DNA of 64,000 nt from Eubacteriales bacterium (lineage in GTDB: Bacteria > Bacillota > Clostridia > Oscillospirales > CAG-272): contig JAZQKI010000048.1 of the NCBI GenBank assembly GCA_045542075.1, forward strand, positions 41,036-105,035, in the 5' to 3' direction. The translations under genes and the position numbers were made by a program. Below the pieces are notes generated by a model, which was given only the letters and a program-made list of their open reading frames with translations, was not told the DNA's origin and ran no database searches. How positions within the stretch are numbered: the stretch's first letter is position 1; each line of letters begins with the position of its first letter. Positions 22,204 to 25,173 of the stretch are shown piece after piece.

Positions 22204-22232
22204 AAAGCCTTCCCTATGCGGAAGGCTTTTTT
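22204..22232 (+). terminator. Intrinsic terminator after rluB
   Basis: aaagccttcc-ctatgc-ggaaggcttt followed by T-tract. Confidence 0.85.
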
Positions 22233-22261
22233 GTCTTAAAATGTCGCAATTTTATAAATTG
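22222..22261 (+). repeat. 40-bp direct repeat, left copy
   Basis: aaggcttttttgtcttaaaatgtcgcaattttataaattg, identical to 23190-23229. Confidence 0.95.
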
Positions 22262-22264
22262 AAA

Positions 22265-22286
22265 CTCCGCACCTTGCGGTGCGGAG
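22265..22286 (-). terminator. Terminator of cassette lipoprotein gene
   Basis: ctccgcacc-ttgc-ggtgcggag hairpin immediately after the stop codon. Confidence 0.7.
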
Positions 22287-22291
22287 AACAC

Positions 22292-23092
22292 TTATTTAGT
22301 TGTTTTTGTTAAAGTTAGGGATTCAACTGAATTGTTGTAAAACATGTCTCCTTCAATGCAGTCAAGAATTAAGGTGTCATTGTTAGATAAAGCGCCGGAA
22401 GCATATAAGATTAGCTTTTTTTCTTGGCTACTTATATCATAGACCTTTATTCCTGGACCATATCGCAACAATTCAATCTCTATCGGTATTGTTTTGTCAT
22501 TGGCATTCCACTCGCCAACATTGGTACTGGGAGAATACCAAAATGAGTACTCCAGTGACTGATATACTGTGGAATCATCGTAATTGATAAAATCTTTCCA
22601 TTGAGAAGAAGTGATAGAAAAAGCAATGCTTTCTTGATAGGATGTCTCAACTTTCGAGGCGTAGATAACATCGTTAGTCGATTCGCTTGTAATATGAATA
22701 ACGCCTTTTTCTCGATCGGGATTATGCAGGATAAATGATTCTGAGTTTATATTTTCAGAGATACCGAGACCCAAAAACAATTTTGCAAAATTGGAATCAT
22801 TCTCGCTACTATAGCGAACCAAACGATATGCGTTTGCATTTTTCACAGGATAGTAAATGCTACGTATTGTAACCGGTGAGCTACCAGTACTGGTCACCCA
22901 TTCGCCTATGCCGCTATCCATAAGAAAATGTATATATTCTGTGTCGGATATTGTTATTACAACATAGTTAGTATCTTTGCTCCACTGGAATACATAACCT
23001 TCTCCACGATTTATTCCTTTGCATGATGACATTGTAAATACAATGAAAAGAGATAATAAGACTAATATGAATGAACTTCTAATTTTTTTCAT
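22292..23092 (-). CDS. Hypothetical lipoprotein (266 aa), AT-rich
   Basis: GGAGG RBS, MKKIRSSFILVLLSLFIVFTMSSC signal peptide II with lipobox. Confidence 0.8.
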   Translation of the reverse strand: MKKIRSSFILVLLSLFIVFTMSSCKGINRGEGYVFQWSKDTNYVVITISDTEYIHFLMDSGIGEWVTSTGSSPVTIRSIYYPVKNANAYRLVRYSSENDSNFAKLFLGLGISENINSESFILHNPDREKGVIHITSESTNDVIYASKVETSYQESIAFSITSSQWKDFINYDDSTVYQSLEYSFWYSPSTNVGEWNANDKTIPIEIELLRYGPGIKVYDISSQEKKLILYASGALSNNDTLILDCIEGDMFYNNSVESLTLTKTTK

Positions 23093-23150
23093 AGGTCCTC
23101 CCAAATTACTTTTGCAGATTAGTCACAATGATGGCTTTACTCACAATTAA

Positions 23151-23180
23151 ATTATATCATACTACGTCATTCCCTGTCAA
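23151..23180 (-). promoter_or_regulatory. sigmaA promoter of cassette gene
   Basis: TTGACA-18bp-TATAAT with extended TG. Confidence 0.7.
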
Positions 23181-23189
23181 CAAATGAAA

Positions 23190-23229
23190 AAGGCTTTTTT
23201 GTCTTAAAATGTCGCAATTTTATAAATTG
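23190..23229 (+). repeat. 40-bp direct repeat, right copy
   Basis: Identical to 22222-22261. Confidence 0.95.
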
Positions 23230-23370: not shown

Positions 23371-24153
23371 GTGGAATACACAACAAAAATACTCATAGCC
23401 GACGAAAATAATTCCCAGCGTCACATTTTGAGGGAGGCTCTCTCACACGCTGGATGCAGATACATAGACGAGGCAACAAACGGCGAGGACGCGCTCGCGC
23501 TAATCAACCGTACCCACCCCGATGTGCTGATAGCGGATATATGGCTCTCAAAGCTGGACGGACTTTCCCTCGTCCGCAGTATCAAGTCAGGCAGAGACCG
23601 TGCACCTATCATAATTATGACCTCGCCTATTTCAAACCAAAATATATTCGTTCAGTCGCTTGAGGCAGGCGCGGACGTATGCCTTATCAAGCCTGTAAAC
23701 ACCTCAACTCTCATTCAGCACATAGAAAACCTGCTCAAAAAGAGAAAAAACTCCCTCTCCCCCGAGTTTTATAACACAAAGCCCGTAGCAGACGAGACAC
23801 CCGACATTGAGGCGCAGGTCACACGCATCATCCACCAGATAGGCGTTCCCGCGCACATCAAGGGCTATCAGTACCTCCGCACGGCAATCCTCCTCACTAT
23901 AAATGACTCCGACATAATAAACTCCGTCACCAAGGTCCTCTACCCATCGGTTGCTAAGAAATATCAGACTACAACCAGCCGCGTGGAGCGTGCGATAAGA
24001 CACGCCATTGAGGTCGCGTGGGACAGAGGCGACGTGGATACGCTGAATTCCTACTTTGGATATACCATTCAGAACAACAGAGGAAAACCTACGAATAGCG
24101 AGTTTATCGCCATGATCGCGGATAATTTGAGACTTAAATACAAGTTGTACTAA
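23371..24153 (+). CDS. spo0A: Sporulation master regulator Spo0A
   Basis: Receiver domain plus [14 protein letters not shown]...[28 protein letters not shown]...[17 protein letters not shown]; GTG start with GGAGG RBS. Confidence 0.98.
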
Positions 24154-24156
24154 TAA

Positions 24157-24277
24157 GCCCTCCCCTGTGTAAGGGGAGGTGGCGCGCGAAGCGTGACGGA
24201 AGGGTTGTAAAATATGGACATTTGGCTGAAACAATCCCTCAGTCGCTCTGCGACAGCTCCCTTTACACAAAGGAGCC
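24157..24277 (+). repeat. Hairpin-rich element, family 1 (unit 1)
   Basis: ctcccctgtgtaaggggagg-tggc...ggaagggttg / caatccctcagtc...cagctccctttacacaaaggagcc with imperfect terminal inverted arms. Confidence 0.8.
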
Positions 24278-24356
24278 GACATGAACACCTGCGAACCCAA
24301 AATTTATTGCCATGATCGCGGATAATTTGAGACTTAAATACAAGTTGTACTAATAA

Positions 24357-24476
24357 GCCTCCCCTGTGTAAGGGGAGGTGGCACGCGAAACGTGACGGAA
24401 GGGTTGTAAAATATGGACATTTGGCTAAAACAATCCCTCAGTCGCTCTGCGACAGCTCCCTTTACACAAGGGAGCC
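24357..24476 (+). repeat. Hairpin-rich element, family 1 (unit 2)
   Basis: Near-identical copy of 24157-24277. Confidence 0.8.
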
Positions 24477-24580
24477 GACGTGAACACCGGCGAACCCAAA
24501 ATTTATTGCCATGATCGCGGATAATTTGAGATTGAAATATAAGCTATATTGAATAACCCCTATATCCTATGATAATATGA

Positions 24581-24622
24581 AAAAAATCCCGACAGATTCT
24601 ATGTCTGTCGGGAATAATTTTT
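24581..24622. terminator. Bidirectional terminator between spo0A array and RAYT
   Basis: tcccgacaga-ttctatg-tctgtcggga with A/T flanks. Confidence 0.8.
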
Positions 24623-24835
24623 ATATTTACAAAGACAAAAACTATTCTTCTGTATATAATTCATCGTAGTACCAGCGTATTGGGTTTTCATAAATGTATT
24701 TCTTTATTTTATCATAATCTTCTCTACCTCGCACAACGTGATCATAAAATCCCCTTTGCCATATATTTACCCCATATTCCTTATTGCAAAACCGTTTGAG
24801 TGTAGATACAAATTGCGACACGGCTGAATGCTGCT

Positions 24836-24864
24836 TTGTAGGGGGCGACGTCCTCGACGCCCCG
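24836..24864 (+). repeat. GTAG-type REP inside RAYT CDS
   Basis: ttgtagggggcgacgtcctcgacgccccg. Confidence 0.9.
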
Positions 24865-25004
24865 TCTCCCGACACAAACAGCATGATATGAATATGGTTT
24901 GGCATAATCACGTATTGGTCAACCGTTACGTTGTTATAGAAATCACTTAATTGGTTTATGTATTTCTCAGCTACTTTACCGTATGGCAATAACTCCACAC
25001 ATTT

Positions 25005-25033
25005 CGGGGCGTCGAGGACGTCGCCCCCTACAA
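25005..25033 (-). repeat. GTAG-type REP inside RAYT CDS (inverted copy)
   Basis: Exact reverse complement of 24836-24864. Confidence 0.9.
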
Positions 25034-25173
25034 TATGTGATAAGGTTTTCCGGCGGCCTTCCGTACATATTGTTATAAAATATGCGCCCACTGTTGCGTA
25101 ATCAAAATTTTTTAATCTTGTAGGTTTTCTTTTCGGTAATTCTTTTTCTTTATCCATTTTCATCACCCGCATT

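What the first reader, a model, noticed from the sequence alone, without database searches (positions are those of the whole stretch)
24502..24552. Displaced spo0A tail differs only by synonymous changes
The third copy (ttt att gcc atg atc gcg gat aat ttg aga ttg aaa tat aag cta tat tga) encodes exactly the same [16 protein letters not shown]-stop as the functional end (24103-24153). It differs at 8 of 51 nt, all silent, including both Leu recodings (CTT/TTG, TTG/CTA) and the stop (TAA/TGA). A decaying duplicate would not be expected to keep only silent changes. Inference: both tails evolved as working spo0A C-termini, so the element brought a replacement end from another spo0A allele or species, and excision would restore an identical protein.
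Basis: partly seen in the sequence, partly recalled or inferred. Interest (0 to 1): 0.7.

Follow-up and report, generated by a model that had tools for sequence, protein, structure and literature searches.

The report
Mini-cassettes carrying a spare spo0A end
Two tiny hairpin-repeat cassettes sit behind the sporulation master gene spo0A; each brought its own synonymously recoded copy of the gene's last 16 codons, and the resident end was pushed downstream intact, a pattern that recurs in related uncultured gut Clostridia.

Summary
Window 24502-24552 encodes the same [16 protein letters not shown]-stop as the working spo0A end (24103-24153) and differs at 8 of 51 nt, all silent. The working tail X is followed by two 199/200-nt units. 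Each unit is a 119-nt structured MITE, a decayed scrap of the upstream spo0A codons, and another tail. Tail Y is the resident end.

The same architecture occurs in 11 other arrays from related gut Clostridia MAGs. Across all 12 arrays, working versus terminal displaced tails differ at 85 synonymous and 5 non-synonymous codons. X is nearest to the tail joined to the same MITE type in another species. About 200 nt of this genome's spo0A 3' coding sequence is foreign relative to its closest relatives. A conspecific strain carries one cassette instead of two.

No recombinase travels with the cassettes, and crossover positions vary. Some displaced tails are mosaics of intact and decayed sequence. 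I therefore favour spread by homologous recombination, with the spo0A coding sequence as the left arm and the duplicated tail as the right arm. How the first duplication arose is unresolved.

Verdict: a new variant of a known theme, of moderate interest.

The parts
23371..24153 (+). spo0A coding sequence (260 aa; receiver domain plus Spo0A_C)
   Evidence: ORF. Orthologues found in 60 of 61 relatives. Pfam Response_reg and Spo0A_C on the identical protein in a conspecific contig.
23946..24153 (+). 3' tract of spo0A that is not like the nearest relatives and was probably imported together with the cassettes
   Evidence: Versus nearest relative G006: 6.4% divergence before alignment column 590 and 17.6% after (likelihood-ratio statistic 19.8). 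Versus distant G015: 31% in the 5' part and 8.9% in the last 135 nt (Fisher p=3e-8)..
24103..24153 (+). Tail X: working last 16 codons plus TAA, linked to the cassette
   Evidence: Nearest relative is G010 tail 3, which is joined to the same MITE type.
24159..24277 (+). MITE copy 1: a 119-nt structured palindromic element
   Evidence: About 14 dispersed copies in this genome. Five helices, 10 base pairs with compensatory changes. Long forms carry a DUF559 ORF.
24283..24302 (+). Decayed copy of the spo0A codons KPTNSE that travels on the right side of cassette 1
   Evidence: 13 of 20 nt match 24083-24102 in register (family D2). It reads TPANPK.
24303..24353 (+). Middle tail: codon 2 as in Y, the rest as in X; same peptide plus TAA
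24358..24476 (+). MITE copy 2, 95% identical to copy 1
   Evidence: A G-to-A change turns a G-T pair into A-T in an internal hairpin (read directly).
24482..24501 (+). Decayed KPTNSE remnant on the right side of cassette 2
   Evidence: family D2.
24502..24552 (+). Tail Y: the displaced resident spo0A end, with the same peptide and a TGA stop
   Evidence: Its last 21 nt are 2-3 differences from sister species G030/G006. The same tail follows the single cassette in conspecific strain L189.
24587..24613 (.). Bidirectional intrinsic terminator; the first plus-strand terminator after the spo0A stop
   Evidence: The cassettes and tail Y therefore lie in the spo0A 3' untranslated region.
24642..25172 (-). 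Neighbouring IS200/RAYT-like Y1 transposase ORF, not part of the cassettes; absent from sister species
   Evidence: Pfam Y1_Tnp scores 21.5 bits, below the 23-bit cut-off. The gene is absent at G006/G030. It does not accompany other arrays.
22222..23229 (-). Second cassette site upstream of spo0A: a lipoprotein gene between perfect 40-nt direct repeats (22222-22261 and 23190-23229)
   Evidence: The conspecific strain has an RDD-family gene there instead, with the same promoter and the same right-hand repeat.

Best explanation
**What it is.** The spo0A 3' end carries two tandem copies of a roughly 200-nt cassette. Each cassette consists of a replacement spo0A tail, a 119-nt non-autonomous MITE, and a short remnant of the upstream spo0A codons. 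Tail X is the end that came in with the cassette and is now translated. Tail Y is the resident end, pushed downstream and not translated.

**How it most likely moves.** The cassette encodes no enzyme. I infer that it moves between strains and species by ordinary homologous recombination. The conserved spo0A coding sequence serves as the left homology arm, and the duplicated tail behind the cassette serves as the right arm.
- A right crossover inside the tail leaves the recipient's own freshly functional codons downstream. This explains why displaced tails differ from working tails only by silent changes.
- The leftmost remnant is never refreshed by such crossovers, so it decays.
- Unequal recombination between the repeats changes copy number and would delete the cassette without altering Spo0A.

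**Shown versus inferred.** Shown: the anatomy, its recurrence in other genomes, the silent-only pattern, the mosaic spo0A 3' end, mosaic displaced tails, and copy-number polymorphism within the species. Inferred: that the pathway is RecA-type recombination. Unknown: how the first tail duplication arose.
For: **Anatomy and repeat family.**

**Empty sites in sister species.** G006 and G030.

**Recurrence.** The same tail-cassette-tail design occurs in G010, G027, G016, G035 and G062. It also occurs in six further MAG species: L167, L169, L171, L172, L173 and L176. Cassette bodies differ: four MITE types, three promoter-plus-hairpin units, and others.

**Silent-only pattern.** 85 synonymous versus 5 non-synonymous codon differences in tails, against 31 versus 23 in the 7 upstream codons.

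**Same cassette in front of different host tails.**
- The MITE-C cassette with its 'catgcgat' junction precedes three different displaced tails (G035, L193, L192).
- The MITE-A cassette with its 'tatagc' junction occurs in G010, L171 and L176. The L171 and L176 displaced tails differ from each other by 6 silent and 0 replacement changes (read from the sequences).

**Mosaic displaced tail.** In L192 the first 34 nt are intact coding sequence and the rest is decayed, including a 2-nt insertion.

**Variable crossover positions.** Blocks of identity between the flanking copies lie at different positions in different arrays (read).

**Mosaic spo0A 3' end.** This genome's spo0A 3' end is mosaic, and across the genus 5' and 3' distances are almost uncorrelated (Spearman 0.17).

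**Copy-number polymorphism.** A conspecific strain has one cassette whose SNPs are a mosaic of the two units here.

**No associated recombinase.** None lies in or consistently beside the arrays.

**Not specific to spo0A.** Tail-cassette-tail structures occur at other genes of this genome, so the process is not spo0A-specific.
Against: - The left edge of the duplicated segment falls within a narrow window, 13-30 nt upstream of the Phe codon and usually at AAGCCC, in about ten different cassette junctions. Unit length is confined to 180-213 nt. Plain homologous or illegitimate recombination does not obviously predict either regularity. Both would fit a site-specific cut or a single ancient origin.
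- In three arrays (L170, L171, L176) the two flanking copies share no identical run longer than 9 nt, too short for RecA-mediated exchange between them.
- No array ending in 'tail-MITE' and no free circular form was seen.
- No empty-site strain of this species was found.
- All genomes are short-read MAGs, so tandem copy numbers rest on the assemblies.
Confidence: 0.6

Rival explanations
1. Miniature site-specific integrative elements. Each cassette would be a roughly 200-bp circle carrying an attP made of the spo0A pre-tail plus tail. An unidentified recombinase supplied in trans would integrate it into an attB in the spo0A 3' end. Copy 1 would be attL, copy 2 attP and copy 3 attR.
For: - The arrangement resembles attL-attP-attR here and in L167, which has three identical 201-nt units.
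- The left boundary of the duplicated segment and the unit size are both narrowly constrained.
- The genome encodes three tyrosine recombinases. Two of them lie beside arrays of tRNA fragments with 181-191-nt periods.
Against: - No recombinase lies in or next to any of the arrays, and this genome has no serine recombinase.
- Cassette bodies are unrelated to one another, so they share no arm-type binding sites.
- The inferred crossover positions differ between arrays, and L192 shows a crossover in the middle of the tail.
- The same architecture occurs at other genes with other repeats.
- Tail-bearing sequences were not found in viral contigs.
Confidence: 0.2
2. Nuclease-driven homing. The DUF559 (Vsr-like) endonuclease encoded by long forms of the MITE would cut the conserved GGAAAGCCCAC...TTTAT region of spo0A. 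Repair would then copy in a MITE-bearing allele whose recoded tail is immune to the nuclease.
For: - At least 9 of the 15 distinct cassettes seen contain a MITE of this superfamily.
- Two long forms with an intact DUF559 ORF exist in this genome.
- The boundary motif AAAGCC resembles the sequence that precedes MITE left ends (read).
- The target is among the most conserved stretches of spo0A.
Against: - Several cassettes contain no MITE.
- Of about 14 MITE copies in this genome, only the spo0A ones have duplicated gene tails.
- G022 has a MITE directly after the spo0A stop with no duplication.
- Homing by double-strand-break repair does not by itself duplicate the flank.
- No activity is known for these DUF559 proteins.
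Confidence: 0.1
3. A local tandem duplication of the spo0A end that then diverged in place, or an assembly artefact of a short-read MAG.
For: - The tandem 199/200-nt periodicity is the kind of structure assemblers can mishandle.
- One apparent duplicate in another genus (L105) is a 100-N scaffold-gap artefact.
Against: - Eight silent and zero replacement changes are very unlikely under neutral decay (about 4e-5).
- The junctions are unique sequence.
- The architecture recurs in 11 other independently assembled arrays, 13 including the strain contigs L192/L193, and in an independently assembled conspecific contig.
- X matches the cassette-linked tail of another species.
Confidence: 0.05

Closest known systems
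Integrative elements (prophages, ICEs, genomic islands) that insert into the 3' end of a tRNA, tmRNA or protein gene and carry a replacement 3' end in attP
   Same: The gene stays intact because the incoming DNA supplies a new end. The old end is displaced as a direct repeat. Successive insertions give arrays of repeated gene ends. This genome has classical examples next to its integrases.
   Different: Here the units are only about 200 nt and encode no integrase. None is found nearby. Cassette bodies are unrelated to each other, and the crossover point is not fixed.
Neisseria 'minimal mobile elements': cassettes exchanged by transformation and homologous recombination between conserved flanking genes (discussed in PMC3787668 and PMC3082526, from title and abstract only; concept otherwise from my own knowledge)
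   Same: Different cassettes occupy one chromosomal site in related genomes. There is no dedicated mobility gene. Movement is inferred from mosaic flanks.
   Different: The right-hand homology here is not a neighbouring gene. It is a duplicated copy of the last 70 nt or so of the left-hand gene, carried inside the unit, so the cassette does not depend on what lies downstream in the recipient.
MITEs and REPIN-like structured repeats
   Same: The body of the cassettes in this window is a 119-nt imperfect palindrome. It has dispersed copies, compensatory changes in its helices, and a longer ORF-bearing relative.
   Different: The ORF in the long form is a DUF559 endonuclease-like protein, not a known transposase. 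The element has no GTAG head like the REPs of the adjacent RAYT-like gene. MITE insertion alone does not explain the duplicated gene end.
Transformation-triggered duplications by alternative pairing of repeats in Streptococcus pneumoniae (PMC3784515, abstract read)
   Same: It shows that recombination of incoming DNA with repeated sequence can create tandem duplications without a dedicated enzyme.
   Different: Those duplications span 100-900 kb between IS copies. Nothing equivalent has been shown at the 70-200-nt scale.

Membership tests
Site-specific integrative element with att sites in a gene's 3' end | Direct repeats of the target gene's end flank the inserted DNA, and the gene is restored by the element-borne copy | tested here: met
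   All copies encode [16 protein letters not shown] plus a stop.
Site-specific integrative element with att sites in a gene's 3' end | An integrase or recombinase is encoded by the element or identifiable as its partner | tested here: not met
   The cassettes are about 150 nt plus a tail and contain no ORF. tblastn with this genome's integrases, RAYT-like protein and DUF559 protein found none beside the other arrays. No serine recombinase in the genome. Three tyrosine recombinases lie elsewhere.
Site-specific integrative element with att sites in a gene's 3' end | Strand exchange occurs at one fixed position in a short core | tested here: inconclusive
   Identity blocks between flanking copies lie at positions 7-30 (this window), 1-30 (G062), -21 to 8 (L167) and the 3' end (L169, L173). 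L192 switches from intact to decayed at about position 16. This points away from a fixed core but rests on few informative sites.
MITE (non-autonomous derivative of a longer mobile element) | Multiple dispersed copies in the genome | tested here: met
   About 14 distinct copies on 6 contigs.
MITE (non-autonomous derivative of a longer mobile element) | A longer form has the same ends and an internal ORF | tested here: met
   C4:24524-24971 and C27:15499-15942 carry a 122-aa ORF between the two MITE halves. Pfam DUF559, E=3.6e-28. Whether this protein mobilises the element is untested.
MITE (non-autonomous derivative of a longer mobile element) | Short target-site duplication | tested here: inconclusive
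   No consistent short duplication is visible. Left flanks end in TAAG, ATAG or AAAG, and right flanks usually start with TTT.
REP/REPIN-RAYT system | Repeats are GTAG-headed hairpins matched to an adjacent RAYT | tested here: not met
   The MITE has no GTAG head. The neighbouring ORF is below the Y1_Tnp cut-off. It carries different GTAG palindromes inside its own frame (pair I1). It is absent from the other arrays.
Diversity-generating retroelement (VR/TR pair at a gene's 3' end) | Differences between the two repeats fall at adenines of the template repeat | tested here: not met
   The eight X/Y differences are C/T, C/T, T/G, C/T, T/C, G/A, C/T and A/G. All are silent.
Recombination-exchanged cassette site ('minimal mobile element' type) | Different inserts occupy the same site between conserved homologous flanks in related genomes, and the flanks are mosaic | tested here: met
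   At least 9 cassette types at the spo0A end. Mosaic spo0A 3' end. Mosaic displaced tail. One versus two units in conspecific strains.
Recombination-exchanged cassette site ('minimal mobile element' type) | DNA uptake and RecA-dependent exchange demonstrated | not testable with these tools
   The only related result is a ComEC homologue in the genome. The organism is uncultured.

The most novel reading that the evidence does not exclude
The cassettes represent a class of enzyme-free, self-targeting mobile DNA. Each is a tiny unit carrying a copy of the end of a highly conserved gene as its own homology arm. That arm lets host recombination install it behind the gene in any related species without harming the gene, whatever lies downstream. 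A stronger version adds that some units (those with a perfect TTGACA-17-TATAAT promoter firing antisense towards spo0A) modulate the sporulation master regulator, and that gain and loss of units acts as a reversible switch.
Probability: 0.3. Interest if true: 0.75.

Novelty: new variant of a known kind. Interest (0 to 1): 0.55.

Why it matters
Replacement of a gene's end by incoming DNA is textbook for prophages and genomic islands, which bring their own integrase. Here the same gene-sparing trick appears in units of about 200 nt with no enzyme. It recurs in many species at the 3' end of the master regulator of sporulation, and signs point to host recombination doing the work.

If this holds, a conserved gene end can itself act as a portable landing pad. 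That is a simple route for small non-coding DNA, and in this genome also lipoprotein and ATPase genes, to spread across species boundaries.

There are two practical consequences. The spo0A 3' end is a recombination hot spot, which can mislead phylogenies built on spo0A. It is also a source of assembly breaks in gut Clostridia MAGs.

Tried and rejected
- **Rfam.** Scans of the region and of five other arrays gave no family at the cassettes.
- **DGR reading.** Rejected, because the differences are not adenine-specific.
- **RAYT as the cassette's enzyme.** Rejected, because a RAYT gene lies near spo0A at only one other locus (G028, which has a single tail) and beside none of the other arrays.
- **Serine recombinase.** None in the genome.
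- **A phage carrying the tail as attP.** No tail pattern in viral contigs.
- **Strain-level empty site in JGI metagenomes.** No hit for tail Y plus its downstream sequence. The array pattern there returned only unrelated repeats.
- **Apparent duplicate in another genus (L105).** It is a 100-N scaffold gap. Second 'tails' in G020 and G023 are contig-end overlaps.
- **Promoter-plus-hairpin cassette of G027.** It is single-copy in its genome, so it is not a dispersed repeat.
- **One wasted genome search.** One search used wrong coordinates and is uninformative.
- **Sequencing runs.** Read support, excision junctions and circular forms could not be examined.
- **Mosaic test with 90-nt windows on four genomes.** The first attempt was inconclusive. 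The signal became clear only with 30 genomes.

Full report
**1. The observation**

spo0A occupies 23371-24153 on the plus strand. Its last 16 codons plus stop (24103-24153, 'tail X') recur at 24303-24353 and at 24502-24552 ('tail Y'), with periods of 200 and 199 nt. X and Y differ at 8 of 51 nt in six codons, and every change is silent, including two Leu recodings and TAA/TGA. Only 18% of possible single-base changes in this tail are silent. The pattern therefore has a probability of about 4e-5 under neutral decay.

The similarity continues 20 nt upstream of the displaced copies (24283-24302 and 24482-24501), but there it is strongly diverged and non-synonymous, reading TPANPK instead of KPTNSE.

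**2. What lies between the tails**

Each unit contains a 119-nt imperfect palindrome (24159-24277 and 24358-24476).

- This is a dispersed repeat, with about 14 copies on six contigs of the 1.64-Mb genome.
- An alignment of 15 copies gives five helices, and ten base pairs show compensatory changes.
- Two long forms (about 445 nt) have the same two halves around a 122-aa ORF that matches Pfam DUF559, a Vsr-like endonuclease fold, with E=3.6e-28.

The short form is therefore a MITE-like derivative. Among all copies in this genome, only those at spo0A are flanked by a duplicated gene end. No plus-strand terminator lies between the spo0A stop and the bidirectional terminator at 24587-24613. The cassettes and tail Y thus sit in the spo0A 3' untranslated region.

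**3. Comparative evidence**

The genome is a MAG of an uncultured gut Clostridia lineage, judging from record titles of related loci.

- The closest species, G006 and G030 (98% and 96% Spo0A identity), have an empty site. There spo0A is followed by a terminator and then the convergent HAD-family gene.
- Within the genus (39 genomes), six species have extra tails.
- A scan of 185,579 species' genomes for two tails 175-205 nt apart found ten loci. All are in related MAGs, and six of them are new.
- Eighty spo0A loci from other genera show no genuine duplicate.

Cassette bodies differ between arrays:

- Four types of the MITE superfamily.
- Three unrelated units, each with a perfect TTGACA-17-TATAAT promoter on the minus strand followed by a stem and a U-run.
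- Others of unclear type.

Unit periods are 180-213 nt.

**4.

Across the 12 arrays, working versus terminal displaced tails differ at 107 nt. That amounts to 85 synonymous codon differences and 5 non-synonymous ones. Four of the five are in one old tail (G010 tail 4) and one is in L172. The seven codons upstream give 31 synonymous and 23 non-synonymous (Fisher p=1e-7).

Displaced tails do decay when they have been resident for long (G010 tail 4, FIDMIADNLMLKYNL**; L192). They are therefore not protected. Most are simply recently displaced functional ends.

- Tail X is closest to the tail joined to the same MITE type in G010: 1 of 21 and 4 of 51 differences, with the identical taa-taagcc-MITE junction.
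- Tail Y's last 21 nt are 2-3 differences from sister species G030 and G006, but equally close to a few other resident tails. Its placement is compatible with the host lineage without being decisive.

The inference that both tails evolved as working ends, and that X came in with the cassette, is supported.

**5. How the cassettes move**

Several results point to homologous recombination and away from a dedicated recombinase.

(a) *Mosaic spo0A.* This genome's spo0A is mosaic. Against its nearest relative G006 it is 6.4% diverged up to about window position 23945 and 17.6% diverged afterwards. Against the distant G015 it is 31% diverged in the 5' part but only 8.9% in the last 135 nt. Across the genus, 5' and 3' distances are almost uncorrelated (Spearman 0.17). 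About 200 nt of coding sequence therefore seems to have come in together with the cassettes.

(b) *One cassette, several host tails.* The same cassette and junction can precede different host tails. MITE-C with 'catgcgat' is followed by three different displaced copies in G035, L193 and L192. MITE-A with 'tatagc' occurs in G010, L171 and L176, and the displaced tails of L171 and L176 differ from each other by six silent changes and no replacement (read).

(c) *A mosaic displaced copy.* The displaced copy in L192 has 34 nt of intact coding sequence followed by a decayed remainder with a 2-nt insertion. This is what a right-hand crossover inside the tail would produce. The reverse pattern in this window (decayed remnant, then a perfect tail) is what the same process would give in a previously empty recipient.

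(d) *Variable identity blocks.* Blocks of identity between the flanking copies lie at different positions in different arrays.

(e) *Copy-number polymorphism.* A conspecific contig has an identical Spo0A protein and flanks 98-98.7% identical. It carries one cassette whose SNPs are a mosaic of the two units here, followed by the same tail Y.

(f) *No associated recombinase.* None is in or consistently beside the arrays. The genome has three tyrosine recombinases elsewhere and no serine recombinase.

(g) *Other genes show the same design.* Other genes in this genome have the same tail-cassette-tail structure with gene-sized inserts:
- a lipoprotein gene between 46-nt gene-end repeats on contig C42;
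- an ATPase gene between 34-nt repeats on C48;
- a lipoprotein gene between perfect 40-nt repeats just upstream of spo0A, replaced by an RDD-family gene in the conspecific strain.

**6. What remains unexplained**

- The left edge of the duplicated segment falls within 13-30 nt upstream of the Phe codon, usually at AAGCCC, in about ten different junctions. Unit length is also tightly bounded. This could reflect a single old origin, a site-specific cut, or selection on repeat length. I cannot tell which.
- In three arrays the two copies are too different for exchange between them. They may have arrived by recombination in longer flanks.
- G022 has a MITE directly after the spo0A stop with no second tail, so MITE insertion there does not by itself duplicate the end.
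- The origin of the first duplication is open.

**7. Comparison with known systems**

The closest known theme is integration of prophages and islands into the 3' end of a gene, with the end replaced from attP. This genome has classical examples beside its integrases. The cassettes share the outcome but fail the membership test on the recombinase and probably on a fixed crossover site.

Functionally they resemble recombination-exchanged cassette sites such as the 'minimal mobile elements' of Neisseria. The difference is that the right homology arm here is a copy of the gene end carried within the unit.

REPIN-RAYT and DGR readings were tested and not met.

**8. Verdict**

I file it as a new variant of a known kind and give it moderate interest. 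Confidence is about 0.85 that X is imported and Y is the resident end, and about 0.6 that host homologous recombination is the vehicle.

Noticed in passing
G000 contigs C4:24524-24971 and C27:15499-15942 (outside the window): Long forms of the MITE carry a 122-aa DUF559 (Vsr-like endonuclease fold) ORF. It is inserted exactly in the central helix, and its stop codon lies inside the fourth hairpin. A DUF559 gene nested in a structured palindromic scaffold with MITE derivatives is not something I know to have been described.
   Followed up: partly
L174:6930-7047, L168:3677-3795, L175 (reverse strand, between tails 2 and 3): Three unrelated cassettes at the spo0A end each contain a perfect TTGACA-17-TATAAT promoter on the strand opposite spo0A. 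It is followed by a 70-80-nt stretch closed by a long stem and a U-run, which looks like a small RNA gene firing towards spo0A. There is no Rfam match, and the G027 unit is single-copy in its genome.
   Followed up: partly
window 22222-23229 and L189:1800-2360: Between rluB and spo0A this genome has a lipoprotein gene flanked by perfect 40-nt repeats. A conspecific strain has an RDD-family gene at the same place, with the same promoter and the same right-hand repeat. Sister species have nothing there. This is a second cassette-swap site next to spo0A.
   Followed up: partly
G000 C42:69731-71006, C48:14500-15498, C6:4992-6367, C46:2866-3543, C7:14135-15079: Further inserts are flanked by 30-152-nt direct repeats that are gene ends or terminators. 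The C42 insert is a lipoprotein gene and the C48 insert an AAA-type ATPase gene. Differences in the duplicated gene ends are again mostly silent.
   Followed up: partly
G000 C48:8240-8745 and C36:7706-7990 (outside the window): Two tyrosine-integrase genes lie beside tRNA genes. Partial tRNA copies are repeated there at 181-191-nt spacing, much like the spacing of the spo0A arrays.
   Followed up: no
window 24642-25172, with inverted repeats 24836-24864 / 25005-25033: The RAYT/IS200-like ORF next to tail Y contains a perfect 29-nt inverted repeat pair inside its own reading frame. Similar GTAG-headed palindromes lie just after the displaced tail in G027 (L174:7080-7170).
   Followed up: no
proteins P0002, P0003, P0011: These metagenomic proteins of 358-366 aa consist of three tandem Spo0A_C DNA-binding domains with no receiver domain. 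Each repeat ends in ...TEFIAMIAD. They could be Spo0A mimics of unknown origin.
   Followed up: no
G000 C4:53670-54350: Three tandem units of 129-nt spacer plus MITE lie downstream of a structured RNA gene. The spacer contains GTAG-headed REP-like hairpins. Most other MITE copies on C4 and C31 share the same left and right flanks, so the MITE is nested in a larger composite repeat.
   Followed up: no
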